A program made the translations under genes and the position numbers. Of a DNA stretch of 64,000 bases, positions 2,749-62,580 are shown in pieces. This stretch comes from Rhodospirillaceae bacterium (lineage in GTDB: Bacteria; Pseudomonadota; Alphaproteobacteria; Rhodospirillales; CALINB01), in contig JAYNQW010000004.1 of NCBI GenBank assembly GCA_038114465.1, forward strand, positions 25,528 through 89,527, written 5' to 3'. Position 1 is the first letter of the stretch; each line of letters begins with the position of its first letter. The notes under the pieces are model-generated. The model was given only the letters and a program-made list of their open reading frames with translations, was not told where the DNA came from and searched no databases.

Positions 2749-2752
2749 AAAT

Positions 2753-5443: not shown

Positions 5444-5469
5444 CTTCTTTAAGATCGGCCCTGATTGTT

Positions 5470-10690: not shown

Positions 10691-10887
10691 ATCCGTCTTT
10701 CTAGCCCCGAACCCTTGCGGTTTCCTGACCAAATCAAGGTCGTAAATTAGGGCAATTCCCGTATTTTCCAGGAATCGCCCGGTTATCAGCCTTACATCAT
10801 CACAAGCTCTATTACATTATAACCTTGATTTCACGGCAATTTTTCACAAGTTTGTCGGTAACAACCGATCTGACCAGGACCATTGGC

Positions 10888-12679: not shown

Positions 12680-13903
12680 ATGCCAAATAATTCTGAAAAA
12701 GCACTTCTTCCCGCAGGACTTAGCGACGTGTTGCCGCCCTATGCCCGCCATGAAGCCGCGGTTCAGGAAAATATTTTGTCGGCATTCGCATTGTACGGGT
12801 ATGAACGGGTCAAGCCCCCGCTGATCGAGTTTGAAGATAATTTGCTGAGTGGCATCGGCACGGCGATGGCCGAGCAAACCTTTCGACTGATGGATCCTGT
12901 TTCACAACGCATGATGGGGCTGCGCGCCGATATGACCCTGCAGGTCGCCCGTATTGCAGCAAGCCGTTTGTACAAACAACACCGCCCGCTTCGGCTGAGT
13001 TATGCCGGTCAGGTTTTGCGTGTCAAAGGCACCCAATTACGGCCGGAAAGGCAATTTGGACAGGTCGGCGCCGAATTAATCGGTGATGACTCCGTTGCAG
13101 CCGATGCCGAGGTCATCTGTATGGCGACGGAGGCGCTTAATTCGATTGGCGTGTCGGACCTCTCCGTTGATTTGTGCATGCCGACGCTGGTACCGGCCGT
13201 TTATAAAAATAAAACAATTTCAGAAAAGACAGCGCAAAAATTGCGCCAATCACTCGACAGCAAAGATATTGCCGGCGTCCGATCGCTCAGCAAAGAACTC
13301 GGTAAATCGACGACAAATATAATAGCCCAAATGTTAACGGCAGCCGGCACAGCTGATGATTCTCTCAACGCCTTAAAAAAACTTAAGTTGCCCAAGCCGG
13401 CCGCGGCAGAGTTATCCCGCTTAATGGCGACGGTTAAGGCTATCCGCCAGCTCACACCGGCATTAACATTGACGATCGATCCCGTCGAAAACCGCGGCTT
13501 CGAATACCACACAGGCGTGACGTTTACCCTTTTTGCCAAAGGCGCCCGGGGCGAATTGGGCAGTGGCGGACGCTATTTGACCGGCAACGGGAGCGACCGG
13601 CAAGAGGCAGCAACAGGGCTTACCCTGTTTATGGATACCATCCTGCGTGCGGCACCTGTTCAGGCTGAGCCGAATCGGCTGTATTTACCGCACGGCACCT
13701 CACCTGACGTAGCTAACGCCTTCCGTTCCCAAGGCTGGGTTACCATTGCGGCATTGAAGCGTGCCGCAAAACCTGAAATAGATGCAAAAAAGATGAACTG
13801 CACGCATATGTTATCCAAAGGTGCACCCGTTTCATTGAAACAAAAAAAGAGTTCAAAAAAAACGGCGCATAAATCAAAACGCAAAAGGGCAAGGAGCCAA
13901 TAA
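12680..13903 (+). CDS. hisZ: ATP phosphoribosyltransferase regulatory subunit (HisRS-like) with a K/R-rich C-terminal extension
   Basis: The HisZ/HisS-like N-terminus is present (LLPAGLSDVLPPYARHEAAVQENILSAFALYGYERVKPPLIEFED; FRLMDPVSQRMMGLRADMT; RLSYAGQVLR). No anticodon-binding domain is present. The tail reads KQKKSSKKTAHKSKRKRARSQ. Confidence 0.8.
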   Translation: MPNNSEKALLPAGLSDVLPPYARHEAAVQENILSAFALYGYERVKPPLIEFEDNLLSGIGTAMAEQTFRLMDPVSQRMMGLRADMTLQVARIAASRLYKQHRPLRLSYAGQVLRVKGTQLRPERQFGQVGAELIGDDSVAADAEVICMATEALNSIGVSDLSVDLCMPTLVPAVYKNKTISEKTAQKLRQSLDSKDIAGVRSLSKELGKSTTNIIAQMLTAAGTADDSLNALKKLKLPKPAAAELSRLMATVKAIRQLTPALTLTIDPVENRGFEYHTGVTFTLFAKGARGELGSGGRYLTGNGSDRQEAATGLTLFMDTILRAAPVQAEPNRLYLPHGTSPDVANAFRSQGWVTIAALKRAAKPEIDAKKMNCTHMLSKGAPVSLKQKKSSKKTAHKSKRKRARSQ

Positions 13904-18273: not shown

Positions 18274-19179
18274 TTAATTTGAATAGGATCGCCGGTCCAT
18301 AAATGTGTTTTTCACGCTCTTCTGTACTTTTTCGAAGGCCTTTACCTCGATCTGACGGACCCGCTCACGGGAAATGCCGTACTCCTGGCTCAAGTGCTCC
18401 AAGGTCCTCGGCGAATCTTTGAGGCGCCGCTCCGTAAAAATATGGCGCTCACGACCGGAAAGCTCCGACATGGCTTGCTTCAAAAGCTCGCGCCGGTCGC
18501 GTAACTCCTGAAACGTGCCCAACGTTTCTTCCTGACTCACCTCGCCGCTCTCAAGCCAGTCCTGCCATTCGCCCTCGCTTTCGTCATTCAGCGGTGCGTT
18601 TAATGAATGGTCCGGCTGGGTCAAACGGCGGTTCATGCTGATAACATCCGTTTCAGAGACCTGCAAAGCCGATGCGATCTTTTTGACATTCTCCGGGGAC
18701 AAATCACCTTCCTCAAGAGCCTGTATTTGCCCTTTAAGCTTGCGCAGGTTGAAAAACAGTTTTTTCTGTGATGCCGTCGTCCCCATTTTTACAAGCGACC
18801 AGGAATGCAAAATGTATTCCTGCATCGCTGCACGAATCCACCACATGGCATAGGTTGAAAACCGAAAGCCGCGCTCCGGGTCAAATCTGTTCAAAGCCTG
18901 CATCAGGCCGATATTGCCTTCCGAAATCAGCTCAGCCACAGGCAAACCATAACCGCGATAACCCATTGCGATTTTTGCAACCAATCTTAAGTGGCTTGTA
19001 ACAATTGTATCGCCGGCTTGGCTATCTTCATGGTCTCGCCAGCGCCGGGCAAGGGACTGCTCCTCTTCAGGCGCAAGCATCGGGTACCCGCGAATCGTTT
19101 GTAGATACCGGGTTAAATTTTGTTCGGGGGACACGTTATGTGCCGTTTGTTCTATGGTCGAAGACGTGGTCACGTTCAA
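18274..19179 (-). CDS. rpoH: RNA polymerase sigma-32 (heat-shock sigma factor)
   Basis: 301 aa. It has sigma-70 regions 2-4 (HLRLVAKIAMGYRGYGLPVAELISEGNIGLMQALNRFDPERGFRFSTYAMWWIR) and an RpoH-box-like segment (QKKLFFNLRKLK). Confidence 0.93.
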   Translation of the reverse strand: MNVTTSSTIEQTAHNVSPEQNLTRYLQTIRGYPMLAPEEEQSLARRWRDHEDSQAGDTIVTSHLRLVAKIAMGYRGYGLPVAELISEGNIGLMQALNRFDPERGFRFSTYAMWWIRAAMQEYILHSWSLVKMGTTASQKKLFFNLRKLKGQIQALEEGDLSPENVKKIASALQVSETDVISMNRRLTQPDHSLNAPLNDESEGEWQDWLESGEVSQEETLGTFQELRDRRELLKQAMSELSGRERHIFTERRLKDSPRTLEHLSQEYGISRERVRQIEVKAFEKVQKSVKNTFMDRRSYSN

Positions 19180-32450: not shown

Positions 32451-32870
32451 TTATTTTTTGTTTTCCGGTTCGAAACCGGGTTCGTACCATGGCCGGTCCA
32501 CATTTTTATCTTCGGCATACCCCATGATACCGAGTTCCGGATCACTCCCGGCATCTTTCGCCATAAAATAAATATTTAAGCCTTCGCCGATCGCAACCAT
32601 TTGGTGCAAAGCATTTGCCGGGATATGAACCATATCGCCCGGGACCATCTCATGATGTTCGCCCTCGACCATCGCTTTGAATTTTCCTTGAAGCACGTAA
32701 TTAAACTGCTCGACCTTAGGATGACGATGCGGCTGCGAACCGGACCCTTGTTTTTTCTCCACAACGCCTGCGGAAATGCGTTCGCCTTCAACCATGCCGA
32801 TTTCAGCCGAACTGATGTGGGCCGCGACCATATCGCGCTTTTCATCAATAATTCTGTGAAAATATTTCAT
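32451..32870 (-). CDS. Cupin paralog 1 (139 aa, monocupin)
   Basis: Cupin motif 1 is GSGSQPHRHPKVEQFNYVLQG and motif 2 is GDMVHIPANALHQ. The N-terminus is MKYFHRIIDE and the C-terminal tail is WYEPGFEPENKK. Confidence 0.85.
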   Translation of the reverse strand: MKYFHRIIDEKRDMVAAHISSAEIGMVEGERISAGVVEKKQGSGSQPHRHPKVEQFNYVLQGKFKAMVEGEHHEMVPGDMVHIPANALHQMVAIGEGLNIYFMAKDAGSDPELGIMGYAEDKNVDRPWYEPGFEPENKK

Positions 32871-32893
32871 GCTTAACTCCTTCGTTTTAAAAA

Positions 32894-33736
32894 TTAATGT
32901 TTTTCCGGATCATGACCTTCCGCATAGCGCGGTGTGTTAAGGCTGGGGTCTTCCGGCACCCCGAAAATACTGCGTCCCTCTTGCTTACCGACATCTTTCG
33001 CGACCACAAATACCCAGTCTTCATCGCCGACAACGATGTTGCCGTGCAGGGCGTTCGGCGGGACATACCATAAATCTCCCGGGCCGATGACTTTCTCTTC
33101 GCCTTCGACGGAAACTTCGCACCGTCCGGAAATAGTATACATGAATTGTTCGACATCCGGATGGCGATGCAGTTGAGCGCCGGTGCCAGCAGCATGGCTC
33201 ATCAACCCGATGGTAATTCGGTCACCATCAATTCGTGTTCCCTTTGTCGTCGTCATTTTAGGATTCAGTAACTCGGCATCGTTCTTATTGAATTTGAAGA
33301 AGTACTTCGAATCTTCACCTTTATCGATACCTTCGAGGACTTCTGACTCCTGACGCGGCGCACTCACGTTTGGGTCCTCCGGCACACCGCTGGTGCCCCG
33401 TTCCGGATCCTTAGCCGCATCTTTTACCATGAAAAAGATGCAGTCTTCTTCGCCGACGGCGATGATGCTGTGCAATGTATTGGCCGGGATATGAACGGCT
33501 TCACCGGGACCGATCACACGCTCCTCACCGTCAACCCAGGGCTGTAATTGGCCCTTTAAGACGAAATTAAATTGCTCAACATTCGGATGGCGGTGCGGCT
33601 GCGAACCGGTGCCGCGCTCTTTATGCACATAACCGACCGTCAAGCGCTCGCCTTTGACCCGCGCACCCTTGGAGGTCGTTATTTTTTTAGAGAACTCCTG
33701 AATGCCCATCGCCGGCAGGTTATGAACAAACGCCAT
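32894..33736 (-). CDS. Cupin paralog 2 (280 aa, bicupin made of two units of the same family)
   Basis: Two complete motif sets are present (GTGSQPHRHPNVEQF...VHIPANTLH and GTGAQLHRHPDVEQF...WYVPPNALH). The second half starts KYFFKFNKND and ends RYAEGHDPEKH. Confidence 0.85.
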   Translation of the reverse strand: MAFVHNLPAMGIQEFSKKITTSKGARVKGERLTVGYVHKERGTGSQPHRHPNVEQFNFVLKGQLQPWVDGEERVIGPGEAVHIPANTLHSIIAVGEEDCIFFMVKDAAKDPERGTSGVPEDPNVSAPRQESEVLEGIDKGEDSKYFFKFNKNDAELLNPKMTTTKGTRIDGDRITIGLMSHAAGTGAQLHRHPDVEQFMYTISGRCEVSVEGEEKVIGPGDLWYVPPNALHGNIVVGDEDWVFVVAKDVGKQEGRSIFGVPEDPSLNTPRYAEGHDPEKH

Positions 33737-33767
33737 GATTTAAGTCTCCTTAAATTCTCAATCGGCC

Positions 33768-34187
33768 TTATTTCTTTTTATCAGGCTCAAACCCGGGTTC
33801 GTACCAGGGCGTTTCCTCTGTACCTTCATCATAAACGCCGTAAATCCAGTTATCCGGATCGCTATGAGCGTCTTTCGCCATAAAATAAATATTCGGGCCG
33901 TCGCCGACAGCAACCATATGATGCAGTGCATTCGGTGGGATATGAACCATGTCACCCGGTTCCATCGTATGATGCTCGCCTTCCACCATCGATTTAAACT
34001 TGCCGGCAATCACGTAATTAAACTGCTCGACTTTGGGGTGACGGTGCGGACGGGAACCCGAGCCCTTTTCCTTTTCGATCAATCCGGCAGTAATTCGGTC
34101 GCCTTTAATGACAGCAGCATGAGCCGTTGTACGTGTGCGTTTTAAATCCGCCCGCTCTTCATCGATGATACGGTGAAAATATTTCAT
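33768..34187 (-). CDS. Cupin paralog 3 (139 aa)
   Basis: It starts MKYFHRIIDE, carries GSGSRPHRHPKVEQF and GDMVHIPPNALHH, and ends WYEPGFEPDKKK. Confidence 0.85.
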   Translation of the reverse strand: MKYFHRIIDEERADLKRTRTTAHAAVIKGDRITAGLIEKEKGSGSRPHRHPKVEQFNYVIAGKFKSMVEGEHHTMEPGDMVHIPPNALHHMVAVGDGPNIYFMAKDAHSDPDNWIYGVYDEGTEETPWYEPGFEPDKKK

Positions 34188-34225
34188 AAATGTTGCCTCC
34201 CATTTTTGCAGCTTGACTTAATTCT

Positions 34226-34645
34226 CTATTTTTTTTCATCCGGATCGAAACCGGGCTCATACCAAGGCTTCGTTGCCGTTTTATCTTCCGCTTCGCCGTA
34301 AATCCATCGTTCCGGATCGCTGATGGTATCTTTGGCCATAAAATAAATATTTTCGCCTTCACCAACAGCGACCATCTGATGAAGTGCGTTCGGCGGTATA
34401 TGGACCATATCACCTTCTTCCATGATGTGGTGTTCACCTTCGACCATGGATTTAAATTTTCCTTTGATGATGAAATTAAACTGCTCAAGTTTTGGATGAC
34501 GGTGCGGCTGCGAGCCGGACCCTTGCTCCTTTTGCACGAGACCAGCAGTAATGCGTTCGCCTTTAATGACGGCGGCATGCGCCGTACTTGTTTTGCTTTT
34601 GATACTTTTTCTGTCTTCGTCGATGATCCGATGGAAATATTTCAT
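34226..34645 (-). CDS. Cupin paralog 4 (139 aa)
   Basis: It starts MKYFHRIIDE, carries GSGSQPHRHPKLEQF and GDMVHIPPNALHQ, and ends WYEPGFDPDEKK. By hand alignment, 103 of 139 residues are identical to paralog 3. Confidence 0.85.
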   Translation of the reverse strand: MKYFHRIIDEDRKSIKSKTSTAHAAVIKGERITAGLVQKEQGSGSQPHRHPKLEQFNFIIKGKFKSMVEGEHHIMEEGDMVHIPPNALHQMVAVGEGENIYFMAKDTISDPERWIYGEAEDKTATKPWYEPGFDPDEKK

Positions 34646-34662
34646 CTCAGTGCTCCCCCTTA

Positions 34663-35088
34663 TTATTTTTTTGCGTCAGGCTCAAAGCCCGGTTCGTAAT
34701 GGGGCGTATTGGCCCCTTCCCGGTCTGGAATGCCCATAATGCCGAGCTTTTTGTCCGACTGCGCGTCTTTCGCCATAAAATATATACAGTCACCATCGCC
34801 GATGGCGACCGTTTGGTGCAATGCATTGGCCGGAATGTATACTAATCCGCCGGGGCCGATTTCGATTTGCTCGTCCTCCACTAAGGCACGCAACCGGCCT
34901 TCCAAAACATAATTGAATTGCTCCACATTGGGATGGCGGTGCGGCTGCGAGCCGGTACCGAGCGCCTTGCGCACGACGGCAACCGTCACCTTTTCACCAG
35001 AAACAGTTGCCGGCTTCGCCGTGGTATGCCGGTCCGGCAAATCATCCGGTTCTTGATTCAAAAGATCATAAAAGTATTTCGATGTCAT
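34663..35088 (-). CDS. Cupin paralog 5 (141 aa)
   Basis: It carries GTGSQPHRHPNVEQF and GGLVYIPANALHQ and ends HYEPGFEPDAKK. Confidence 0.85.
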   Translation of the reverse strand: MTSKYFYDLLNQEPDDLPDRHTTAKPATVSGEKVTVAVVRKALGTGSQPHRHPNVEQFNYVLEGRLRALVEDEQIEIGPGGLVYIPANALHQTVAIGDGDCIYFMAKDAQSDKKLGIMGIPDREGANTPHYEPGFEPDAKK

Positions 35089-35137: not shown

Positions 35138-36256
35138 TTATCGGAAGTGTTTCGCTACCTCCATAAACTTGGCAAAAGATTCGGGATCGATGGAATGATC
35201 CTCTTTTTTCTTAACCGAGAATTCAAACGCCGAAAGCGTTTCTTCGATTGTTTCTTGGGCGATACCATTGGTGATGAAAACAATCCGCGTCTGATCATTC
35301 CCACCCGGAAAGGAATCGAGTTCGACCGGCGGATGAAACAGATGCTGCACCGCCTGCACGACAATCGGCGTGCCTTCGACATTCACGATACCTTTCATGC
35401 GCAAAAGGTCGCTTCCTTTAAAGGCTGAAAGCATGTTGAACCATACTTCCAGTCCCTGTGCCATCACCGGCTTGTCATAGGTGATGCAATAGGAACTGAT
35501 GTTCTCGTCGTGATGAGCGTGTTTATGACCGCTGGCATGACTATGGTCATGATCGTGAATATGAGCGTGCTCATCCGTTTTTAACCATTCTTCGATTTCA
35601 TTTTCACCCCAGCGCTCATTATCCGGATTCAGGCCAAACAACGTATCGGGGTCAACTTCACCATGAAGAATCTTATCAATCACTACGCCAGGATTAATGT
35701 GTTCAATGCGCTTGCAGAGAGTCGTGTAAGTTTCGTCATTACTGAGGTCAGTTTTGGTGATGAAAATTCGGTCGGCAACGGCGACTTGCTTGACGGATTC
35801 ATAATGATCATCAAATTGCCCGAGAGCATGCACCGAATCGACAACCGTAATAACGCCATCGACAAAAAACCAATCGCCGAGCCCACTATCGGAGATCACC
35901 GTCATCAACACCGGTACCGGATCGGCCAATCCGGTCGTCTCGACGAGCACGCGATCAAACGGCGGAATTTCGCCTTTGGCCCGGCTTTCAAGCAGGCCAC
36001 TAAGCGTATCAACAAGATCGCCCCGAACCGAACAGCATAAACATCCGCTCGATAGCAGCATGACGTCTTCATTGGGGGTCGTCATCAGCTCATGGTCGAG
36101 TGCAATATCGCCGAATTCGTTAATAATCACGGCGGCATTTTCCATGCCCGGATGCTTCAAAATCCGGTTTAACAGCGTCGTCTTGCCGCTGCCCAAAAAG
36201 CCCGTAATCACGGTCAGCGGGATAAAAGCCTTTTCAGGCCGTTCAAGTTCTTGCAT
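35138..36256 (-). CDS. COG0523/CobW-family G3E GTPase metallochaperone with His-rich insert
   Basis: The Walker A motif is GFLGSGKTTLLN and the CxCC motif is SSGCLCCSVRGD. The His-rich segment DEHAHIHDHDHSHASGHKHAHHD lies at 35507-35575. A CobW C-terminal domain is present. This is the first gene of the same-strand run with the five cupins. Confidence 0.88.
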   Translation of the reverse strand: MQELERPEKAFIPLTVITGFLGSGKTTLLNRILKHPGMENAAVIINEFGDIALDHELMTTPNEDVMLLSSGCLCCSVRGDLVDTLSGLLESRAKGEIPPFDRVLVETTGLADPVPVLMTVISDSGLGDWFFVDGVITVVDSVHALGQFDDHYESVKQVAVADRIFITKTDLSNDETYTTLCKRIEHINPGVVIDKILHGEVDPDTLFGLNPDNERWGENEIEEWLKTDEHAHIHDHDHSHASGHKHAHHDENISSYCITYDKPVMAQGLEVWFNMLSAFKGSDLLRMKGIVNVEGTPIVVQAVQHLFHPPVELDSFPGGNDQTRIVFITNGIAQETIEETLSAFEFSVKKKEDHSIDPESFAKFMEVAKHFR

Positions 36257-36311
36257 TTTCTGTTATCTCTACCCTGGTGAACGAAGATTTGATCAGAATG
36301 GACCACACTCG

Positions 36312-37088
36312 ATGACTATGGTCAACCGCCAGCACATCATCATCCCATACGGCTTAACCCATTGGGATAAAAATGTTTTTTCGAGCACGATGGGCGCCGG
36401 TGGCGATCTTGTTATCAATTGCCGTACCCGTTTTGTTGTGATCGACCCGACAGAGCACTCCCCGTTGCGCCTCAATGGTGGGCAATACGAGTTTCATGAG
36501 CCGCCGAACATGCGCTTACTACCGACGGTCCTGGATCAATTGGCCTTCCTCGAAACCCATTTTTTTGCGCTGTGCGGAACCTGGTCGAAAATGCAGCGGC
36601 TCTTTATTTCGCGTTATTTCGAATTCATTGTAAATCGGGTGGAAGCAGAGCGTTCACACCTCTCAAAATCAATTGAAGCATTCGGCAATCTTTACGAATA
36701 TCAGGATTGGGCTTACTCCGCCTTGCGGCCCCTACCACAGGCCTATGTCTTTGCTCCAAGGGGCGGCAGCGGTGAGGGACTCCCCCAGGCGGATGATTTT
36801 ATCCTTACCGACATTGTTTTTTGGACAGGTAAAAAAGTTTTCGTTCTCGATTTTTCCGATCCCAATGCGACCGATCCGTTCCAAAAGCGTAAATTTGATC
36901 GGATTAAAAATGCCGGTATCAAAATTTTACCTATGACGGCGGATATACTTGAAGACAAATCTTCATCAAACTTCGCCAATAGTTTACCTGAAGTGTTCCA
37001 AAATTTCTGGCAGGGCGAACTCGCGCCATCCCGCCCGTTCGTCGACACCAAGCTCGGCGACCTATCCATCAGCGACATCGGATTTTGA
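36312..37088 (+). CDS. Hypothetical protein (258 aa)
   Basis: The ATG at 36312 (MTMVNRQ...) is used, because the upstream part of the 35976 ORF is antisense to the COG0523 gene. No family was recognised. A terminator follows. Confidence 0.5.
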   Translation: MTMVNRQHIIIPYGLTHWDKNVFSSTMGAGGDLVINCRTRFVVIDPTEHSPLRLNGGQYEFHEPPNMRLLPTVLDQLAFLETHFFALCGTWSKMQRLFISRYFEFIVNRVEAERSHLSKSIEAFGNLYEYQDWAYSALRPLPQAYVFAPRGGSGEGLPQADDFILTDIVFWTGKKVFVLDFSDPNATDPFQKRKFDRIKNAGIKILPMTADILEDKSSSNFANSLPEVFQNFWQGELAPSRPFVDTKLGDLSISDIGF

Positions 37089-37090
37089 AC

Positions 37091-37124
37091 AAAAAAACGG
37101 CGCTCCCGAAAGAGCGCCGCTTTG
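37091..37124. terminator. Bidirectional rho-independent terminator between convergent genes
   Basis: The stem is CGGCGCTC/GAGCGCCG (37098-37105 / 37112-37119) with a 6-nt loop. A7 lies on the left and CTTTG on the right. Confidence 0.7.
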
Positions 37125-37144
37125 AAAATATAGTGGCCGAGTGA

Positions 37145-43697: not shown

Positions 43698-43792
43698 CTT
43701 ACCTCCGAAAAATCTTAATTTTGTTAATTGTTGGTCTTGGTATGTTATGAATTGTGTATGTATATGAATACCGTATTGAAGACACAATTACC

Positions 43793-44860
43793 ATGGCTCC
43801 AGTATCGAAAAATTTAAGAACGGATCGCATTCCGGTTTCCGTCATCACCGGCTTTCTCGGCAGCGGCAAAACCACGCTTTTGAACGCATTGCTCAAACAC
43901 CCCGGGATGGCCGACACCGCCGTCATTATTAATGAATTTGGCGAAATCGGCCTCGATCATCTTCTCGTCGAGGAAGCTTTTGAAGACGTCCTCTTGCTAC
44001 AAAGCGGGTGCCTGTGTTGCACGATCCGCGGCGATATAGTCGACACCCTCGACCGTCTGTATGGGCAAATGGACCGGGGGGAAGTCCCCCCCTTCAAACG
44101 CGCGGTCATTGAGACGACCGGCCTCGCCGACCCGGCACCCGTTCTACAGACCCTCATGACAGAAGACCTCATTACGAAGCGGTTTAGACTCGATAGCGTT
44201 ATCACCACGGTCGATGCGGCCAACGGCCTCGGTCAGCTTGATGAACACCCGGAACCGGCCAAACAAGCTGCCGTGGCCGACCGGATTGTTCTGACCAAAA
44301 CGGATCTTGTTTCAGATACGGAAGTTCAACAATTGAAAGAGCGCCTGGCGTCTTTAAATCCCGGTGCGCCGATTTTTGAAGTCATCAACGGGAATATCGA
44401 ACCCGACAAACTGTTCGGTGCCGCCCTATTCGATCTGACGCAAAAAACACCGGACGTGCAACAATGGTTGCGTGAAGAATCCTACAAATCCGAACACGAT
44501 CATCACGACAGTCACCATCACGATGTCAATCGTCACGGCGAAGACATCCGAGCATTTTGTTTAACTTATGACACACCGATCCCGTGGGATGCCTTTAAGG
44601 CATGGCTCGAATCCATCGCATCCGTGCGGGGTGCTGACCTGTTACGCATGAAAGGAATTGTTAACATCGAAGGCGAAACGACACCGATTGTTATCCATGC
44701 CGTGCAGCATGTGTTTCATCCTCCGGCACGCTTACCGAAGTGGCCCGATGATGATCATTCAACGCGTATTGTTTTTATTACCCGCAATATCGCGCAAGAA
44801 CCTCTGGCGAAAACACTGGAAGCATTCGCAACGCAAGTCAAACCGGCGTTTGCGGAATAA
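43793..44860 (+). CDS. COG0523/CobW-family G3E GTPase metallochaperone (second copy)
   Basis: It carries GFLGSGKTTLLN and QSGCLCCTIRGD. The His-rich segment EHDHHDSHHHDVNRH lies at 44492-44536. The ATG at 43793 is preferred. Confidence 0.88.
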   Translation: MAPVSKNLRTDRIPVSVITGFLGSGKTTLLNALLKHPGMADTAVIINEFGEIGLDHLLVEEAFEDVLLLQSGCLCCTIRGDIVDTLDRLYGQMDRGEVPPFKRAVIETTGLADPAPVLQTLMTEDLITKRFRLDSVITTVDAANGLGQLDEHPEPAKQAAVADRIVLTKTDLVSDTEVQQLKERLASLNPGAPIFEVINGNIEPDKLFGAALFDLTQKTPDVQQWLREESYKSEHDHHDSHHHDVNRHGEDIRAFCLTYDTPIPWDAFKAWLESIASVRGADLLRMKGIVNIEGETTPIVIHAVQHVFHPPARLPKWPDDDHSTRIVFITRNIAQEPLAKTLEAFATQVKPAFAE

Positions 44861-46569: not shown

Positions 46570-47574
46570 TTATTTAATGGCGAGCGGATTGACCGGCGAA
46601 CCGACCGCGCCGGTGATCGGCAAGGCCGGCGCGACAAACATAAACTCGTATCGTCCGTCCTTGGCGCAATCCTTGGCGATTTCCGTGAAGTCGAAAATTT
46701 CGCCGACGGTCAAGCCCATGATCGGGATCGAAATCCAATGCCACGGCTGGTTGTATTCTTTCGACCGGTTCGGCCGTACTTCGGCCCCCCAAGTATCGGT
46801 CGCGACACCGGCGACTTCCTTTTCATGCAGCCATTGCAGTGTATCAAAACCGAGGCCCGGCGCATCGCCGCCGGGGTAGCCATCCCAGTTGCCCTTGTGC
46901 AGGCAATGCTCGAGCTGGCCGGTCCTCACCATGACAAAATCACCACGCTTGACCTCGACGTCATGATGCTTAGCCGTATCTTCCAAATGTTTTGCCGTGA
47001 CCTCAAATGCATCCGGCAGCCATTTCTTGCCGAGCATCTTCGGCACGTCTAATAAGATGCCCCGGCCGACGATTTTGTCGCGGGTCTTTTCAATGCCGCA
47101 TTTTTGCGCGCCGTTACTGGTCACCTCACGGACATCGAAACCGTTGTACATGTAGTCTTCGTAAAAGATGTGCCCTAATCCGTCCCATTGCGTGCCGCAT
47201 TGGGTCGGCAGGATAACGATATCATCAGAAGCCCGTATCTTGCGGTGATCCAGCACGCCGGAATAGGCATCCGTTCCCGTGCGCAACATGACATGGATCG
47301 GATTAAAACGGTTCATCGGCGGATACTTCGTTTTGCCACCTTGTGGTCCCGCTTGATCAAAATTGAGCGCCAGCGAAAAGACCTTGCCCCGTTGCACCAA
47401 TTGCGCGGCCTCAACGATGTCTTTCGGCTTGATGTAATTCAGCGTGCCAATTTCGTCTTTCTTGCCCCACTTACCCCAGTTTTTAAGCTTTCTCGCCGCG
47501 GCCTTCATCATGGGCTTGGTCACCAGCCCTTTGAAGCTCACTTTTTTCGCTTTTGATTTTGCTTTCTTCGCCAT
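46570..47574 (-). CDS. Cyclase-family (kynurenine-formamidase-like) metal hydrolase with K-rich N-terminal extension
   Basis: The N-terminus is MAKKAKSKAKKVSFKG...KLKNWGKWGKKDEIGTLN. The cyclase-family core contains GTQWDGLGH. Confidence 0.65.
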   Translation of the reverse strand: MAKKAKSKAKKVSFKGLVTKPMMKAAARKLKNWGKWGKKDEIGTLNYIKPKDIVEAAQLVQRGKVFSLALNFDQAGPQGGKTKYPPMNRFNPIHVMLRTGTDAYSGVLDHRKIRASDDIVILPTQCGTQWDGLGHIFYEDYMYNGFDVREVTSNGAQKCGIEKTRDKIVGRGILLDVPKMLGKKWLPDAFEVTAKHLEDTAKHHDVEVKRGDFVMVRTGQLEHCLHKGNWDGYPGGDAPGLGFDTLQWLHEKEVAGVATDTWGAEVRPNRSKEYNQPWHWISIPIMGLTVGEIFDFTEIAKDCAKDGRYEFMFVAPALPITGAVGSPVNPLAIK

Positions 47575-47589
47575 GATGACTCCTCTGAG

Positions 47590-48000
47590 TTATTTCTTTT
47601 CGTCCGGATCGAATCCCGGCTCATAATGGGGTTTATCGTAAGTACCGTCTTGGGTTTCCGTTTTCAGTTCCCGTGATGCATCTTTAATGCCGATAAATTC
47701 AACATCTTCATCCGACACCGTAATGAACTGATGATAGACGCCGGCGGGGACATAAACGAGTTCACCCGGACCAACGACGCGTTCGTCTTCACCCTCAATC
47801 ACGACTTTTAATTGTCCTTTGAGGATGTAATTAAACTGCTCAATCGAATGCTTGTGCATGCGAGAGCCTGTCCCCTTGGCTTTTGTTGCCAAGCCGAAGC
47901 TGATGCGCTCGCCAATCAATTTCGCGCCGTGAGAAGACGACACGCCCGGCGCATAGTCGAACTTTTCGGCTTCCGAAAAATTCGGAAAAATGTGTTTCAT
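47590..48000 (-). CDS. Cupin paralog 6 (136 aa)
   Basis: It carries GTGSRMHKHSIEQFNYILKG and GELVYVPAGVYHQ and ends HYEPGFDPDEKK. Confidence 0.85.
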   Translation of the reverse strand: MKHIFPNFSEAEKFDYAPGVSSSHGAKLIGERISFGLATKAKGTGSRMHKHSIEQFNYILKGQLKVVIEGEDERVVGPGELVYVPAGVYHQFITVSDEDVEFIGIKDASRELKTETQDGTYDKPHYEPGFDPDEKK

Positions 48001-48055
48001 TGTTTAGACCTCCCTGGTTTCTATGTTTTAGCTTGTCTTGGTCCTTACAGCAATA

Positions 48056-48086
48056 AGCCCCGGCGAAGACAATGCCGGGGCTTTTG
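48056..48086. terminator. Hairpin/terminator between the amidohydrolase and cupin 6 genes
   Basis: The 9-bp stem is AGCCCCGGC/GCCGGGGCT (48056-48064 / 48074-48082). The T-run (TTTTGATT) is on the plus strand, and only a weak U-tract lies on the coding (minus) strand. Confidence 0.45.
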
Positions 48087-48108
48087 ATTAAATCGTTCGA
48101 TTTTTGGC

Positions 48109-49461
48109 TTAGAGGTCGTCCAGCTTCTTCCAGGGCGGCGGTGCCGGATGGACCACATAACGCGGTGTATCGGAGAAACGGTCGATAAAAACACCGCCGG
48201 CCTTCATCACCATTTTGATGTTGTCTTTTTTCTGCAGAACGGTGATATCGCGATCCGGGCTGCCGTCGATGGCGAGAATATCGGCGATTTTGCCTTTCTC
48301 GATCGTGCCGAGATCTTTGTCGAGCCGGACCGCTTCGGCGGCGTTTTTCGTCGCCGTCACGATGGCTTCCATCGGCGTCATCCCGAGATCGACATAAAGC
48401 GCCAACTCGTTTGCATTTTCGCCGAATTCCGGATCGAGACCAGTATCCGTACCCATGGCCAGCTTCACGCCTGACTGATGGAATTTTTTGAAGGATTCAT
48501 AAGTGTAAGGCTGAATCTTTTTCATTTTCTTCAAAATGAATTCCGGCGTACCGCATTTCCGGCGCACCTCAATGGCATGATCAGTCCGGTGCAGAAGCGT
48601 CGGAATCACAGGAATTTGCGCATCTTCGATCATCTTGATGGTTTCGTCATCGGTAAAGACGATGTGCTCAATCGTATCAACCCCGGCGCGCACACACATG
48701 CGATGCGATTCGGTCGTAAAACAGTGCACAGCGCATTGCGCGTGGAAAGCATGACACTCATCAACAATGGCATCGAGCTCTTCCTGGGTCATATTGCGCA
48801 CGTCGGGCTCTTCCTTATCGGTACCGCCGCCGCCGGATGCGGACGTTTTGATAAAGTCTGCACCATGACGAAGCTGCTCACGAGTGGCCCGACGCAAATC
48901 CCACGGCCCATCGGCAACCAAATCATCGGCGACCCGGACATGGGCACGCGGCAGCGTAAGATCCAAGTGAGAATTCGTAATGACGGCGCGGCCGCAAACG
49001 ATCAAACGAGGTCCGGCTAAAACACCGTTATCAATGGCATCTTTCAAGGCAACCATTTCAACCGTGTTTTGCCCAGTCGGCAACATGCGGCCTTGATCGC
49101 GCAACGTCGTGAAACCCATTTCAAAACACAACTGTGCATGAAACAGCGTGTAATAACTTTGCAGTCCGCGGGAAACTTCGAAAATGGAGACCCGATAGTT
49201 ATTCCAAGTGATCGGGTTAAAAGCTGCAATATGCACATGCAGATCGAACATGCCCGGCATTAGCGTGTATTTGGAGGCATCGATGACTTCGGCGCCGGCT
49301 GGGATCTTAACTTTACCCTTAACACCGACTTCCTTGATGCGGTCGTCTTTAATGACGATGATCGGATTATTAATAATCTCTCCGCCGTTGCCATCAACGA
49401 GCCGCTTGCCCTTGATGACTTTGACATTGCCTGATTTCTTTTTTGCTGCCGATTTTGCCAC
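48109..49461 (-). CDS. Metal-dependent amidohydrolase-superfamily protein with K-rich N-terminus
   Basis: The HxH motif (PGMFDLHVHIA) and distal ligand regions (AVHC, GTDTG) are present. The GTG at 49461 is preceded by GAGGGAGA, giving an N-terminus MAKSAAKKKSGNVKVIKGKR. The ORF-track start at 49524 has no Shine-Dalgarno. Confidence 0.8.
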   Translation of the reverse strand: MAKSAAKKKSGNVKVIKGKRLVDGNGGEIINNPIIVIKDDRIKEVGVKGKVKIPAGAEVIDASKYTLMPGMFDLHVHIAAFNPITWNNYRVSIFEVSRGLQSYYTLFHAQLCFEMGFTTLRDQGRMLPTGQNTVEMVALKDAIDNGVLAGPRLIVCGRAVITNSHLDLTLPRAHVRVADDLVADGPWDLRRATREQLRHGADFIKTSASGGGGTDKEEPDVRNMTQEELDAIVDECHAFHAQCAVHCFTTESHRMCVRAGVDTIEHIVFTDDETIKMIEDAQIPVIPTLLHRTDHAIEVRRKCGTPEFILKKMKKIQPYTYESFKKFHQSGVKLAMGTDTGLDPEFGENANELALYVDLGMTPMEAIVTATKNAAEAVRLDKDLGTIEKGKIADILAIDGSPDRDITVLQKKDNIKMVMKAGGVFIDRFSDTPRYVVHPAPPPWKKLDDL

Positions 49462-49726
49462 TGGATTTATCTCCCTCTCGCCCCCGCAATGATTAAATTG
49501 CAGATTAAAATATTTTGTTTGCATTAGTTTAAGAGCAACTAAGACGTCTGATTATCATAGACGGCAATTCAGCCCTGTCAATTGCCTGACCGAACCGTAA
49601 TATCCTTTAAACATTAGAATTTTTCTATTGCGACATATTCGCAAAACACTTGCTTCACGATGCCTCTAAATTTATGTTTGTGAGCAACCATTCACGGCAC
49701 AATTAACCACCCAGGAACCGAACATC

Positions 49727-50602
49727 ATGGCCAAATCTTTGAGGAAAAAGAAGAAACCTGCGCGACGCAAAAAGCCCGCGAAACGCAAAGCGGTCAAAAA
49801 GAAAACCGTATCGAAGCGCCGTCCAACAAAACGCAAAGCCACGAAGCGCAAGGCAACTAAACGTAAAACGGTGAAGCGCAAAGCGACGAAGCGCAAGGCG
49901 ACGAAGCGTAAGGCGACTCGCAAAAAGCCGGCTAAAAAGAAAGCAACAAAAAAAAGTAAATCCTCAAAGAAAACCGCACGGAAAAAACCCGCGAAGCGGA
50001 AGCCGGCCAAGAAAAAATCAACGAGCAAAAAACCGGTGAAGAAAAAAACACCGGCTAAGCGTAAGGCCACGAAGAAGAAAAAAGCTACGGCTTCGAAGAA
50101 AAAGCCGAAGGTTTTCGTCTACAACATGTACGACCTTAAAAAGCCGAAAGGGCCGGCGAGCGCCGAGGTTAACCCGCACCGCAAGCTGTCGGGCAAATCG
50201 ACAACGGAAGCCTGTAATATTAAAGGCGCGCAAATGCAGGTGGGGATCGCCCACAAACGCCAGGGCACCGGCTCCAAGCTCCATACGCACCCGAACGAGC
50301 AATACAACTTCGTGCTCAAGGGAACGCTGGTTGTGGATATCGACGGTCGAATTCAACGATGCCCCGCCGGCAGTGTCGTTCATATACCAGCAGGCACGGT
50401 ACACAGCACCTGCGCATCCGAAGAGGGCGACGCCATCTTCTACGTCTGTAAGGATAACCGTCACGGTATGGCGGGGCCACCGATCGACGGCAAGGAAGAT
50501 GGTGCGCGCTATCTACCTGGCTTCGAGCCGACGGAAGAGCAACGCCAACAAGACGCGGATAAAACTCGCAAAGTTACAGACGACAAAGTCAAAAGACTTT
50601 AG
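49727..50602 (+). CDS. Histone-H1-like lysine-repeat domain fused to cupin paralog 7
   Basis: The N-terminal ~135 aa are almost entirely K/R/A/T/P repeats (KRKAT x6, PAKKK...). The C-terminal cupin carries GTGSKLHTHPNEQYNFVLKG, GSVVHIPAGTVH and RYLPGFEPTEE. Confidence 0.8.
   Translation: MAKSLRKKKKPARRKKPAKRKAVKKKTVSKRRPTKRKATKRKATKRKTVKRKATKRKATKRKATRKKPAKKKATKKSKSSKKTARKKPAKRKPAKKKSTSKKPVKKKTPAKRKATKKKKATASKKKPKVFVYNMYDLKKPKGPASAEVNPHRKLSGKSTTEACNIKGAQMQVGIAHKRQGTGSKLHTHPNEQYNFVLKGTLVVDIDGRIQRCPAGSVVHIPAGTVHSTCASEEGDAIFYVCKDNRHGMAGPPIDGKEDGARYLPGFEPTEEQRQQDADKTRKVTDDKVKRL
49733..50130 (+). repeat. In-frame low-complexity coding repeat (15-nt ACNAARCGNAARGCN units at 49826-49918 inside a longer AAG/AAA-rich tract)
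   Basis: Direct reading shows six consecutive units: acaaaacgcaaagcc / acgaagcgcaaggca / actaaacgtaaaacg / gtgaagcgcaaagcg / acgaagcgcaaggcg / acgaagcgtaaggcg. Confidence 0.85.
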
Positions 50603-61591: not shown

Positions 61592-62425
61592 TTATTTGCC
61601 CTCTTCGGCCCGCATCTGATCAACTTTTTCTTCAAGATATGGCATCGATTCAACAGCAGCGTAACGGACCGGCGCTTCATTGCCAGCCACCATACGTGCG
61701 GCATCACCTTTTCTGATTTGCACGATATCGCCTTCGCCCATGCTTTTCTTCTCACCGCCGACATCGGCATCCAGATTACCGGACATGAGATAAATGAATT
61801 TTTCATGTGCACTTTCAAATTCGGGCGTTTCAGTCCCCGGCGGGATGTCAGCAAACTCAAAAGCCAGCCGTTCACCTTCAACGCGGAATTTACGCCCGGC
61901 CGAGCGAACCGGCTCATCGAGGGAATCCAGCATCGGGTAATAGCAATTGCCGAGGCCTTCGATAATCGCTTGCGATTCATCGGCTGAGCCAGTGCCTTTG
62001 TTCTTACGGTCTTCGATTTCGCCCTTCTCAAACTTTTCGTTCACTTCCTCAATAGATAAAGCTTTTTCCGGTGGCTTTTCATTTGCTGCAACACCGACCA
62101 CGGTCCAGGTTTGGTCCTTCACGTAAAGATAGCTGAGCGGCCCCTCTTCCGTTGCTTTCATGGAATGGCGCGCAAAGGCCGGTGCATGCACAAAGGTTCC
62201 CGGTCTCACGATACGGCGGTCTTTGCCGACAATCGCATTGAGGACACCGTAAAACGGGAAAATCAACAATTCATTGGGGTGGTAATGCAACTCAGAACCC
62301 GTCCCCGGTTCTTTGAATACATTACAAAAGTACATGTATTGCCCCTCGATCACCGGGCCTTCGCCGGACGATAAATTGGGGGTCAGATAATTTCTGCCAA
62401 AATCTTCAAATCGATAAAAAGACAT
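61592..62425 (-). CDS. Bicupin protein (different subfamily from the tailed cupins)
   Basis: The ATG at 62425 is preceded by GGGAGGAAA. The first cupin unit carries GTGSELHYHPNE, and a second, degenerate unit is present. There is no YEPGFEP tail. Confidence 0.7.
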   Translation of the reverse strand: MSFYRFEDFGRNYLTPNLSSGEGPVIEGQYMYFCNVFKEPGTGSELHYHPNELLIFPFYGVLNAIVGKDRRIVRPGTFVHAPAFARHSMKATEEGPLSYLYVKDQTWTVVGVAANEKPPEKALSIEEVNEKFEKGEIEDRKNKGTGSADESQAIIEGLGNCYYPMLDSLDEPVRSAGRKFRVEGERLAFEFADIPPGTETPEFESAHEKFIYLMSGNLDADVGGEKKSMGEGDIVQIRKGDAARMVAGNEAPVRYAAVESMPYLEEKVDQMRAEEGK

Positions 62426-62580
62426 CGAGATATTTCCTCCCAAAGGCCGCCGCAAATAGGGGCTGGCTCAATTTAAAATTCTGAATTTCGGTATTCTCCC
62501 GAGCCCGAGTGGGCGGGAGCTCCCGGTGCGCTGTGCACCATACTGGTTCACTTTTTAACCGTCAACGAGACGGTCGCCCC

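What the first reader, a model, noticed from the sequence alone, without database searches (positions are those of the whole stretch)
49727..50602. Histone-H1/AlgP-like lysine-repeat domain (~135 aa) fused to a cupin paralog: candidate ligand-sensing nucleoid or DNA-binding protein
The N-terminal ~135 residues are almost pure K/R/A/T/P low complexity and include six consecutive KRKAT-type pentapeptides encoded by 15-nt repeats at 49826-49918. They are followed by a complete cupin of the local family (GTGSKLHTHPNEQ, VHIPAGTVH, RYLPGFEP). Such basic repeats bind DNA or RNA in eukaryotic H1 and in bacterial AlgP/Hc1-type proteins. Cupin domains serve as small-molecule sensor modules in AraC-type regulators. 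The surrounding ~32 kb contains no recognisable transcription factor, so this protein is a candidate unconventional regulator of the island. That last point is inference only.
Basis: partly seen in the sequence, partly recalled or inferred. Interest (0 to 1): 0.65.

Follow-up and report, generated by a model that had tools for sequence, protein, structure and literature searches.

The report
Cupin protein with histone-like lysine tail
A small metal-binding cupin protein from an uncultured, probably Rhodospirillales bacterium carries a real, conserved, 128-residue lysine-rich disordered tail of the kind that sticks other bacterial proteins to DNA, RNA or polyphosphate, an undescribed domain pairing whose role as a gene regulator is possible but not supported over a simpler "tethered enzyme" reading.

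Summary
ORF 49727-50602 (+) encodes 291 aa. Residues 1-128 hold 72 K+R, no D/E and six KRKAT units from 15-nt repeats. A Cupin_2 barrel with intact His-His-Glu-His ligands follows.

The tail is translated and selected. The SD and MAKSLRKK start are conserved, the internal Met is not, and divergence is mainly at third codon positions. Ten orthologous tails (99-137 aa) keep 53-59% K+R and no acidic residue. Near-identical strains differ only by clean 15-nt unit insertions (6, 7 or 8 units).

The cupin's nearest relatives are tail-less bicupins, one of which sits directly upstream of a tctCBA transporter operon, as does a second tailed cupin. Nearest solved structures are metalloenzymes. Basic tails were added to this family several times, at either terminus. 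Identical KRKAT repeats elsewhere sit on SWIB, TBP, DksA-like and BlaI-type proteins, and on TopA in this window.

Best reading: a metal-cupin, probably still an enzyme, tethered non-specifically to DNA, RNA or polyphosphate. The regulator idea keeps some support (no transcription factor in 28-64 kb; conserved divergent position) but is untested. Verdict: new variant of a known kind, moderate interest.

The parts
49727..50602 (+). Complete gene for the 291-aa lysine-tail cupin (the stop codon overlaps the convergent CoA-ligase-like gene by 4 nt).
   Evidence: ORF list. The exact protein is listed in 43 blocks of the assembly collection (23 carrying contigs read), with the same neighbours in the four places shown. 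Orthologs in L005, L014 and L015 share synteny.
49727..50110 (+). Polycationic, intrinsically disordered H1-like tail (residues 1-128; 72 K+R and no D/E in residues 1-127).
   Evidence: Composition. No secondary structure and pLDDT about 45-60 in the AlphaFold2 model. Codon differences against L005 at positions 1/2/3 are 27/21/62, with 42 synonymous and 32 non-synonymous codon changes. Ten orthologous tails have no acidic residues.
49829..49918 (+). Six in-frame 15-nt units encoding KRKAT-type pentapeptides; copy number is polymorphic (6, 7 or 8).
   Evidence: TRF. Protein variants of 291, 296 and 301 aa. L021 is the same locus (4 mismatches in 6 kb of flanks) with a clean 30-nt insertion of two AAGCGTAAGGCGACG units.
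50111..50536 (+). Single cupin beta-barrel domain (residues 129-270) ending in the family motif RYLPGFEP.
   Evidence: Pfam Cupin_2 E = 1e-11. AlphaFold2 pLDDT is mostly 80-98 with nine strands. Foldseek top hits are small metal cupins with TM (target) 0.6-0.8.
50282..50299 (+). Metal-ligand motif H186-x-H188-x2-E191 (HTHPNE).
   Evidence: H186, H188 and E191 are at least 90% conserved in the 26-sequence family alignment. Coordinates were read from the sequence.
50402..50404 (+). Codon of H226, the fourth predicted metal ligand (VHIPAGTVH).
   Evidence: At least 90% conserved column in the family alignment.
50537..50602 (+). Charged C-terminal extension (TEEQRQQDADKTRKVTDDKVKRL) found only in the tailed clade; a short helix is predicted.
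   Evidence: Alignment: the DADK(T/A)RKV motif is present in P0002-P0005 and P0088 and absent from bicupins and local paralogs. Helix 270-277 in the model.
49650..49678 (+). Candidate promoter of the gene: TTGCTT, 17-nt spacer, TATGTT.
   Evidence: Both hexamer regions are conserved in the four-lineage alignment of the intergenic region, and are duplicated together with the gene in L014. The site falls below the consensus-scan threshold, so its promoter function is inferred.
49713..49716 (+). Shine-Dalgarno-like AGGA, 10 nt upstream of the ATG.
   Evidence: AGG is invariant in the window, L005, L014 and L015; the fourth base is A in the window and L005 and G in L014 and L015.
49554..49581 (-). 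Strong sigma-70-like promoter (TTGACA, 16-nt spacer, TATGAT) for the divergent amidohydrolase-cupin-cyclase operon.
   Evidence: Consensus scan gives 11 of 12 matches. The CTGTCA and CATCATA blocks are invariant in four lineages.
46570..49524 (-). Divergent partner operon: amidohydrolase (48109-49524, start probably near 49461), small cupin (47590-48000) and cyclase-family hydrolase (46570-47574).
   Evidence: Pfam. Adjacency to the tailed cupin is conserved in L005, L014, L015 and L021. The amidohydrolase and cyclase carry short lysine-rich N-terminal leaders in all lineages.

Best explanation
The gene encodes a cytoplasmic, metal-binding, single-domain cupin from an uncharacterised cupin family found among catabolic and transporter genes. 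In one clade, probably Rhodospirillales, this cupin has acquired an N-terminal tail of about 128 residues. The tail has no acidic residues, is about 57% lysine plus arginine, is intrinsically disordered, and was built by in-frame amplification of short KRKAT-type units.

Shown here: the tail is translated. Selection acts on its charge and composition, not on its exact sequence or length. The cupin metal site and all family-invariant residues are retained.

Inferred: the tail works like the lysine repeats of H1, AlgP, Hc2, PhaF and TopA. It would act as a non-sequence-specific electrostatic tether to a cellular polyanion (chromosomal DNA, RNA or polyphosphate). This would hold the cupin, probably as a dimer like other small cupins and like the pseudo-dimeric bicupin relatives, on the nucleoid, on RNA or in a condensate. 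The cupin itself most likely remains a metalloenzyme or metabolite-binding subunit linked to the adjacent amidohydrolase-cupin-cyclase and acyl-CoA genes. It is not a classical transcription factor.
For: The tail is translated:
- The SD-like AGG(A/G) and the ATG-GCN-AAR-TCT-TTG start are conserved in four lineages.
- The internal Met143 used by some gene callers (P0080) is Leu in P0002, P0006 and P0024.
- Only the lysine frame is open.
- Divergence is dominated by third codon positions.
- Lys codons are shifted toward AAG relative to other genes (31 AAA: 26 AAG against 181:92), and no A-run exceeds 8.

The tail is under selection:
- Ten orthologs have tails of 99-137 aa with 53-59% K+R and no D/E, although K to E is a single transition.
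- The tail is kept in both copies of a tandem duplication in L014.
- Alleles with 6, 7 or 8 units are always in frame.

The tail is disordered.

The polyanion-binding inference:
- Identical repeat grammar occurs on SWIB, TBP, DksA-like and BlaI-type proteins.
- It also occurs on the TopA C-terminus, and a basic tail is present on RNase R, in this window.
- The literature shows such tails binding DNA (TopA, PMC5714199; DdbA, PMC3643593; Hc2, PMC2848022), RNA (PhaF, PMC12818456) or associating with polyphosphate granules (AlgP, PMC9239181).

The cupin looks like an enzyme:
- H186, H188, E191, H226 and the other family-conserved residues are retained.
- Cupin identity within the clade is 73-97% while the tails diverge.
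- The nearest relatives are tail-less bicupins. Bicupin P0008 and the second tailed cupin P0052 both lie immediately upstream of tctCBA.
- The best PDB matches by sequence and by fold are metalloenzymes.
- No helix-turn-helix fusion was found among the ten relatives with long extensions that were scanned.
Against: - No binding, localisation or enzymatic data exist, and the polyanion partner cannot be identified computationally.
- The substrate and reaction of this cupin family are unknown, because every solved structure is distant (E worse than 1e-9).
- The conserved, monocistronic, divergent position next to a catabolic operon, together with the lack of any Pfam transcription factor in about 36 kb, fits a regulator as well as an enzyme.
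- Related amidohydrolase clusters in other Alphaproteobacteria do contain IclR-type regulators, so a regulator seems to be missing here.
- It is not obvious why a catabolic enzyme would benefit from a tether carrying about 72 positive charges.
Confidence: 0.5

Rival explanations
1. The protein is an unconventional one-component regulator or ligand-responsive nucleoid-associated protein. The lysine tail supplies DNA binding. The cupin senses a metabolite or metal and changes oligomerisation or DNA bridging, which controls the divergent amidohydrolase operon or the whole island.
For: - The gene is a stand-alone unit, divergently transcribed from the amidohydrolase-cupin-cyclase operon. This arrangement and both promoters are conserved in four lineages.
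- No Pfam transcription factor or riboswitch was found in 28-64 kb.
- Related clusters elsewhere carry IclR regulators.
- There is precedent for an H1-like N-terminal domain fused to a regulatory module (DdbA, PMC3643593).
- Cupins act as sensor domains in AraC-type and HTH-cupin (PuuR-type) regulators; this point is from my own knowledge.
- The AraC_binding model scores 25.7 bits, above its cut-off of 21.1.
Against: - Lysine-rich disordered tails give little sequence specificity, so control of one island is hard to explain mechanistically.
- The AraC_binding hit overlaps a stronger generic Cupin_2 hit, and no HTH is present.
- The cupin retains a complete catalytic-type metal site and groups with bicupins, one of which sits in an enzyme-like operon position.
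- The second tailed cupin P0052 lies in a locus that already has an IclR regulator.
- No conserved palindromic operator stands out in the intergenic alignment.
Confidence: 0.2
2. The tail has no specific binding partner. It would be a tolerated or mildly useful low-complexity expansion (a solubility or entropic-bristle tag, or an aid to expression), produced by slippage of 15-nt units in a lineage prone to lysine-rich termini.
For: - Unit number varies among near-identical strains.
- Tail length and sequence vary across the clade from 99 to 137 aa.
- Short lysine-rich leaders or tails also occur on unrelated enzymes of the same genome: amidohydrolase, cyclase and HisZ.
- Basic extensions of graded strength recur in the cupin family.
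Against: - Complete exclusion of acidic residues over more than 1,100 tail residues in diverged orthologs, a constant K+R fraction, and substitutions mainly at third codon positions all indicate purifying selection on charge.
- The tail is retained in all clade members and in both tandem copies.
- About 72 extra Lys and Arg residues are a high nitrogen cost (inference).
- A polycation of this charge cannot avoid binding nucleic acids inside a cell (inference from physical chemistry).
Confidence: 0.15
3. The tail is a scaffold or client signal for a polyanion-based condensate or polyphosphate granule. This would co-localise the pathway enzymes, with the long-tailed cupin as the driver and the short-tagged amidohydrolase and cyclase as clients.
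For: - Three proteins encoded around the same divergent promoter all start with MAK plus a lysine-rich leader, and this is conserved in four lineages.
- AlgP, an H1-like protein, associates with polyphosphate granules (PMC9239181).
Against: - The leaders on the neighbours are short (10-20 aa), and an alternative explanation is a translation-initiation preference for GCN-AAR codons (from my own knowledge).
- Neighbours of the other tailed cupins (L008, L012) carry no such tags.
- The small cupin located between the two tagged enzymes has none.
Confidence: 0.1
4. This would be an annotation artefact. Translation would really begin at the internal Met143 (50153) or later, giving an ordinary 122-158 aa cupin, and the lysine-rich frame would be untranslated leader sequence.
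For: Some pipelines called exactly these short products: P0080 (158 aa), P0083 and P0089 (122 aa), and the 118-aa call in L014.
Against: - Met143 is not conserved, being Leu in P0002, P0006 and P0024.
- The upstream ATG with its SD and the MAKSLRKK start are conserved.
- The lysine frame stays open in every ortholog and in the tandem copy, and all indels are multiples of 3.
- The codon-position pattern is that of a coding region.
Confidence: 0.03

Closest known systems
Stand-alone bacterial H1-like proteins: AlgP (Pseudomonas), the Burkholderiales H1-like protein (NCBIfam NF038053) and Hc2/HctB (Chlamydia)
   Same: All share a lysine-rich, Ala/Pro/Thr-containing, disordered repeat region built of short units. 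Hc2 also varies in size through the number of lysine-rich pentamers (PMC2848022), as seen here with 6, 7 or 8 units. AlgP associates with polyphosphate granules (PMC9239181).
   Different: Those proteins have no cupin or other enzymatic domain. HMM similarity is only compositional: NF038053 scores 14.1 bits against a cut-off of 80, and there is no PF07382 hit. The tail here has a higher charge density (57% K+R).
DdbA of Streptomyces (N-terminal H1-like domain plus C-terminal DksA-like domain; PMC3643593)
   Same: The architectural logic is the same: an N-terminal histone-H1-like lysine-rich region fused to a C-terminal folded effector domain. A DksA-type protein with a KRKAT-like tail also appeared among the tail-only hits (P0066).
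   Different: The effector domain there binds RNA polymerase. Here it is a metal cupin with no known link to transcription.
PhaF and PhaM (phasin-type proteins with H1-like tails)
   Same: A functional globular domain is tethered through a lysine-rich disordered tail. The PhaF disordered region binds RNA (PMC12818456). Tethering of PHA granules to the nucleoid is from my own knowledge.
   Different: The tail is C-terminal in those proteins. The partner domain is a granule-binding phasin, not a cupin.
Lysine repeats of topoisomerase I C-termini (Streptomyces and actinobacteria; PMC5714199)
   Same: These are an enzyme plus a lysine-repeat tail that stabilises the enzyme on DNA. The TopA encoded in this very window ends in KKKATKKKATKKKTAKKKTAKKK, the same pentapeptide grammar.
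   Different: TopA's substrate is DNA, so the purpose of its tether is obvious. No nucleic-acid substrate is known or suggested for Cupin_2 proteins of this type.
Cupin-sensor transcription factors: AraC/XylS family and HTH(XRE)-cupin regulators such as PuuR (from my own knowledge)
   Same: The AraC_binding model scores above its cut-off.
   Different: There is no helix-turn-helix of any kind. None was found in the ten family relatives with extensions that were scanned. The cupin groups with bicupins, one of which lies in an enzyme-like context.
Tail-less bicupins and monocupins of the same family (e.g. P0008, P0009, P0012, P0048; annotated only as cupin domain-containing or quercetin dioxygenase-like proteins)
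   Same: These are 46-57% identical in the cupin domain. They share the HTHPNEQ, HxPAG..H, KD..HG and YLPGFxP motifs and occur among catabolic and transporter genes.
   Different: They have a second cupin domain, or nothing, where the target has the lysine tail. They lack the DADKTRKV C-terminal extension. Their function is also unknown.
Dps (ferroxidase with a short lysine-containing N-terminal tail that mediates DNA binding and condensation; from my own knowledge)
   Same: It is a metalloprotein whose N-terminal basic tail places it on DNA.
   Different: The fold is unrelated (ferritin-like dodecamer). The tail has only a few lysines rather than about 72 basic residues.

Membership tests
Cupin_2 (PF07883) / cupin superfamily | Profile HMM match above the curated gathering score | tested here: met
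   E = 1e-11, 44.8 bits against a cut-off of 27.2, residues 180-239.
Cupin_2 (PF07883) / cupin superfamily | Small beta-barrel (jelly-roll) fold | tested here: met
   AlphaFold2 model with nine strands in residues 147-243 and pLDDT mostly 80-98. Foldseek probability is 1.00 to many small cupins, with TM (target) 0.6-0.8.
Cupin_2 (PF07883) / cupin superfamily | Two-motif metal site (His, His and Glu in motif 1; His in motif 2) | tested here: met
   H186, H188, E191 and H226 are present and at least 90% conserved in the family. The spacing is HxHx2E rather than the canonical HxHx3-4E. Metal binding itself was not tested.
Histone H1-like / AlgP / Hc2-type bacterial proteins | Match to curated family models (NCBIfam NF038053 hist_H1_lk_Burk; Pfam PF07382 HC2) | tested here: not met
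   NF038053 gives E = 0.041 and 14.1 bits against a cut-off of 80. There is no PF07382 hit at E up to 1.
Histone H1-like / AlgP / Hc2-type bacterial proteins | Lysine-rich, Ala/Pro/Thr-containing, acid-poor, disordered short-repeat region | tested here: met
   72 K+R and no D/E in 127 residues, six KRKAT units, and a predicted disordered state.
Histone H1-like / AlgP / Hc2-type bacterial proteins | Binding of DNA (or polyphosphate or RNA) by the repeat region | not testable with these tools
   Only analogy is available: the same repeats occur on DNA- and RNAP-associated domains and on TopA in this window.
AraC/XylS family regulators | AraC-type ligand-binding cupin plus a C-terminal double helix-turn-helix (HTH_18 / HTH_AraC) | tested here: not met
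   AraC_binding scores 25.7 bits (cut-off 21.1), but this overlaps a stronger Cupin_2 hit. No HTH domain is detected anywhere in the protein.
HTH(XRE)-cupin regulators (PuuR-like) | N-terminal HTH_3 domain preceding the cupin | tested here: not met
   There is no HTH hit in the target or in the ten relatives with N-terminal extensions or unusual lengths that were scanned.
Bicupins of the same subfamily (closest sequence relatives) | Two tandem cupin domains in one chain | tested here: not met
   A single Cupin_2 stretch is found. The region aligned to the N-terminal cupin of the bicupins is the lysine tail.

The most novel reading that the evidence does not exclude
The protein would be a new type of one-component regulator that uses a histone-H1-like disordered tail instead of a folded DNA-binding domain. 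Binding of a metabolite or metal in the cupin would change dimerisation or DNA bridging and compaction. This would switch transcription of the divergent amidohydrolase-cupin-cyclase operon, and perhaps of the whole cupin-rich catabolic island, which has no transcription factor. Unit-number variation in the tail would tune affinity between strains.
Probability: 0.15. Interest if true: 0.8.

Novelty: new variant of a known kind. Interest (0 to 1): 0.45.

Why it matters
Lysine-rich H1-like tails are known in bacteria on nucleoid proteins, phasins, HU and topoisomerase I. They have not been described on a cupin or on any small-molecule metalloenzyme. No paper in the searched library links a cupin to such a tail.

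Within this one cupin family the fusion is conserved, under selection and recurrent. Automated annotation often truncates it.

If the tail tethers an enzyme to the nucleoid, to RNA or to polyphosphate, it would be an example of sub-cellular placement of metabolism in bacteria by a simple electrostatic tag. If it makes the cupin a ligand-responsive chromatin protein, it would be a new design of regulator. Either outcome can be tested with one recombinant protein and a tail-deletion construct.

Tried and rejected
1. The genome-contig scan with the whole protein returned only a distant bicupin (L006) and a low-complexity match in a Gemmatimonadales SWIB-type gene (L007). It did not name the organism. 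Taxonomy therefore rests on source names of relatives (Rhodospirillaceae and Rhodospirillales MAGs) and on the dprA-topA-rnr gene order, which I recall from my own knowledge.

2. I tested for non-orthologous displacement by asking what sits at the divergent position of homologous amidohydrolase operons in genomes that lack the tailed cupin. The result was inconclusive. At 59-73% identity the amidohydrolase lies in differently organised clusters (amidohydrolase-CobW, TTT or TRAP transporters, IS elements). IclR regulators occur nearby in two of the four clusters, but not at an equivalent position.

3. I looked for co-tagging of neighbours in the loci of the other tailed cupins. It is not general.

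4. Sequence, profile and fold searches against the PDB found only distant, generic metal cupins, so no reaction can be assigned.

5. Rfam scans found no riboswitch or leader RNA.

6. The H1-like family HMMs fall below threshold.

7. I considered a secretion signal or targeting peptide and rejected it. The tail has no hydrophobic stretch (2 of 127 residues are L, I, F, W, Y or M).

8. I considered AT-rich mutational bias as the cause and rejected it. The window is about 52% GC, the tail DNA is 48% GC, and the encoded proteins overall have a normal 6.1% Lys.
Full report
**1. Observation**

The ORF 49727-50602 (+) encodes 291 aa. Tandem Repeats Finder reports a 15-nt period array at 49832-49917 with 5.7 copies. 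Read in frame, six units at 49829-49918 encode KRKAT, KRKAT, KRKTV, KRKAT, KRKAT, KRKAT.

Residues 1-127 contain 56 K, 16 R, 18 A, 14 T, 9 P, 8 S and 4 V. They have no D/E, no G, and two residues from L, I, F, W, Y or M. The genes of the window overall have 6.1% K and 5.7% R.

Pfam Cupin_2 matches residues 180-239 with E = 1e-11.

**2. Is the tail translated?**

Some pipelines started the gene at an internal Met, giving 158, 122 or 118 aa. The evidence favours the long form.
- An AGG(A/G) Shine-Dalgarno element 10 nt upstream and the start ATG-GCN-AAR-TCT-TTG (MAKSL) are conserved in four diverged lineages.
- Met143 is Leu in P0002, P0006 and P0024.
- Only the lysine frame is free of stops.
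- Against the 67%-identical ortholog in L005, tail codons differ at positions 1/2/3 by 27/21/62, with 42 synonymous and 32 non-synonymous codon changes. This is the same pattern as in the cupin part, 22/24/78.
- All indels among orthologs are in frame.
- Lys codons are shifted toward AAG relative to other genes (31:26 against 181:92 AAA:AAG), and the longest A-run is 8. This fits avoidance of slippery poly(A) tracts, which is my inference.

**3. Selection and dynamics of the tail**

Ten orthologs (cupin identity 73-100%) have tails of 99-137 aa. K+R is always 53-59% and no tail contains an acidic residue. Lys to Glu is a single transition, so this indicates purifying selection on charge, not on sequence or length.

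Near-identical strains carry 6, 7 or 8 KRKAT units (291, 296 and 301 aa). L021 is the same locus, with 4 mismatches in 6 kb of flanks, and has a clean 30-nt insertion of two AAGCGTAAGGCGACG units.

One lineage (L014) has a tandem duplication of promoter, SD, tail and cupin, and both copies keep the tail. The AlphaFold2 model has no secondary structure and pLDDT about 45-60 over residues 1-125.

**4. The cupin**

The model gives a confident barrel for residues 128-270. In a 26-sequence family alignment H186, H188, E191, Q192, H226, K242, D243, Y262, G265, F266 and P268 are invariant or at least 90% conserved, and all are present in the target.

Sequence, profile and fold searches of the PDB return only distant metalloenzymes and structural-genomics cupins: quercetinase YxaG, BacB, oxalate decarboxylase, KdgF, TM1459 and Sthe2323. 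The best sequence E-values are 3e-7 and 1e-9. No reaction can be assigned. No regulator is among the closest matches.

**5. Family and context**

An exhaustive search of 1.84 billion representatives finds only 403 relatives at E up to 1e-3. The closest tail-less relatives are bicupins of about 327 aa and one monocupin, 46-57% identical. Cupin domains encoded elsewhere in the window are 25-42% identical.

A neighbour-joining tree places the tailed clade as sister to the bicupin clade. A second N-terminally tailed group (P0050, P0052, P0119) sits elsewhere in the tree. C-terminally tailed cupins also exist (P0057, P0060, P0206, P0147 and the 192-aa ORF in L006). Milder basic disordered extensions occur in P0106, P0108 and P0112. 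The fusion therefore arose several times.

P0052 probably comes from the same genome as the window, because it shares a longest-contig length of 188,911 bp with the window's own proteins. That link is an inference. P0052 lies immediately upstream of tctCBA, and so does the tail-less bicupin P0008. This is the context of an enzyme acting on an imported substrate.

In the tailed clade itself, the gene is always a separate unit divergent from an amidohydrolase-cupin-cyclase operon, next to CoA-ligase, thiolase and 3-hydroxyacyl-CoA dehydrogenase genes. Both divergent promoters are conserved.

**6. Other tails**

In the same window, TopA ends in KKKATKKKATKKKTAKKKTAKKK, RNase R ends in a basic tail, and HisZ has a shorter one. 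The amidohydrolase and cyclase next to the target begin with lysine-rich leaders of 10-20 residues, conserved in four lineages. Neighbours of the other tailed cupins do not.

Proteins that matched only the tail of the query are SWIB-domain proteins, an archaeal TBP, a DksA-like protein, a BlaI-type repressor and HC2-like proteins. This repeat type is therefore typically attached to modules that associate with DNA or RNA polymerase.

**7. Literature**

- H1-like AlgP associates with and spaces polyphosphate granules (PMC9239181).
- The PhaF disordered region binds RNA and activates translation (PMC12818456).
- DdbA combines an N-terminal H1-like domain with a DksA-like domain (PMC3643593).
- Hc2 varies by the number of lysine-rich pentamers (PMC2848022).
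- Lysine repeats in TopA stabilise the enzyme-DNA complex (PMC5714199).

No paper in the library describes a cupin with such a tail.

**8. Interpretation**

Shown here: a translated, selected, disordered polycationic tail on an intact metal-type cupin; recurrence of this fusion in the family; conserved synteny; and allelic variation in unit number.

Inferred: the tail binds a polyanion (DNA, RNA or polyphosphate) without sequence specificity and so places a probably dimeric cupin on the nucleoid, on RNA or on granules. The cupin remains an enzyme or metabolite-binding subunit. I give this reading a probability of 0.5.

It is also supported by the absence of any Pfam transcription factor or riboswitch in 28-64 kb and by IclR regulators in related clusters. 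It lacks a source of sequence specificity and is not favoured by the cupin's relatives.

The other rivals are a neutral or solubility tail (0.15), a condensate or co-localisation tag (0.10) and a mis-called start (0.03).

**9. Comparison and novelty**

The tail works like H1, AlgP, Hc2, PhaF and TopA repeats, but it fails the curated H1-like models. The protein is a Cupin_2 member. It is not an AraC-type or HTH-cupin regulator because it has no HTH, and it is not a bicupin.

The domain pairing appears to be undescribed. I class it as a new variant of a known kind, namely a lysine-repeat tether on a new partner domain. It is of moderate interest, and would be of high interest only if the regulator or enzyme-clustering readings prove true.

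**10. Limits**

- There are no experimental data.
- The organism is inferred.
- The tree is neighbour-joining on 37 domains.
- Alignments within low-complexity sequence are approximate.
- Repeat-number variants come from short-read metagenome assemblies, although the flanks are essentially identical and the insertion is clean.

Noticed in passing
window 5264-5443 (TopA C-terminus), 7639-7725 (RNase R C-terminus), 13811-13903 (HisZ C-terminus): Three other proteins in the window end in lysine-rich tails. The TopA tail (KKKATKKKATKKKTAKKKTAKKK) uses the same pentapeptide grammar as the target. A basic tail on HisZ, a histidine-biosynthesis regulatory subunit, is unexpected.
   Followed up: partly
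window 49400-49524 (amidohydrolase N-terminus, - strand) and 47500-47574 (cyclase N-terminus, - strand); also L005, L014, L015: The two enzymes encoded divergently from the target start with lysine-rich leaders of 10-20 residues (AKSAAKKKSGNVKVIKGKR and MAKKAKSKAKKVSFKG). These are conserved in four lineages. The small cupin between them has none. The leaders could be a shared tag or simply a translation-initiation preference.
   Followed up: partly
window 31667-63588: This is a cupin-rich catabolic island. It has nine cupin genes: five in tandem at 32451-35088 including a bicupin, then 47590-48000, the target, and the bicupin at 61592-62455. It also holds two COG0523/CobW-type metallochaperone GTPases (35138-36256 and 43754-44860), MmgE/PrpD, SDR, enolase-superfamily and ComA genes. 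No transcription factor was found in it.
   Followed up: partly
L014 9988-10776: A tandem duplicate of the entire tailed-cupin unit (promoter, SD, tail and cupin; 259 aa from MAKSTRKKEKPAKRKK). The gene caller reported it as a 118-aa cupin. Together with P0080, P0083 and P0089, this shows that automated annotation often truncates the architecture.
   Followed up: yes
L008 and L009 8001-8648: A second N-terminally lysine-tailed cupin (P0052, 215 aa, about 39% identical) lies directly upstream of tctC-tctB-tctA.
   Followed up: partly
L012 8001-8696; L006 10928-11506 (- strand): A different cupin subfamily carries the lysine tail at the C-terminus, with variable length (192, 211 and 231 aa). It sits next to GRDB-like and ABC-transporter genes and two bicupins.
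   Followed up: no
window 50537-50599: The tailed clade alone has a charged C-terminal extension with a conserved DADK(T/A)RKV motif and a predicted short helix. Its role is unknown, and it co-occurs with the tail.
   Followed up: no
L017 7001-9563; L018 7001-9483: In more distant Alphaproteobacteria, including Aquamicrobium terrae, the homologous amidohydrolase is followed immediately by a CobW/COG0523 GTPase, with an IclR regulator nearby. This suggests the amidohydrolase is a client of the metallochaperone.
   Followed up: no
window 1585-7725: The dprA-topA-rnr gene order at the left end of the window fits an alphaproteobacterial chromosome (from my own knowledge). A Crp/Fnr-type regulator (9860-10732, assigned from reading its sequence, not scanned) and a sigma-70-family factor (18274-19179, Pfam) are the only transcription proteins seen in the window.
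   Followed up: partly
window 36257-37144: This 888-bp stretch has no confident gene. The only long ORF (35976-37088, +) overlaps the CobW gene and has no Pfam match.
   Followed up: no
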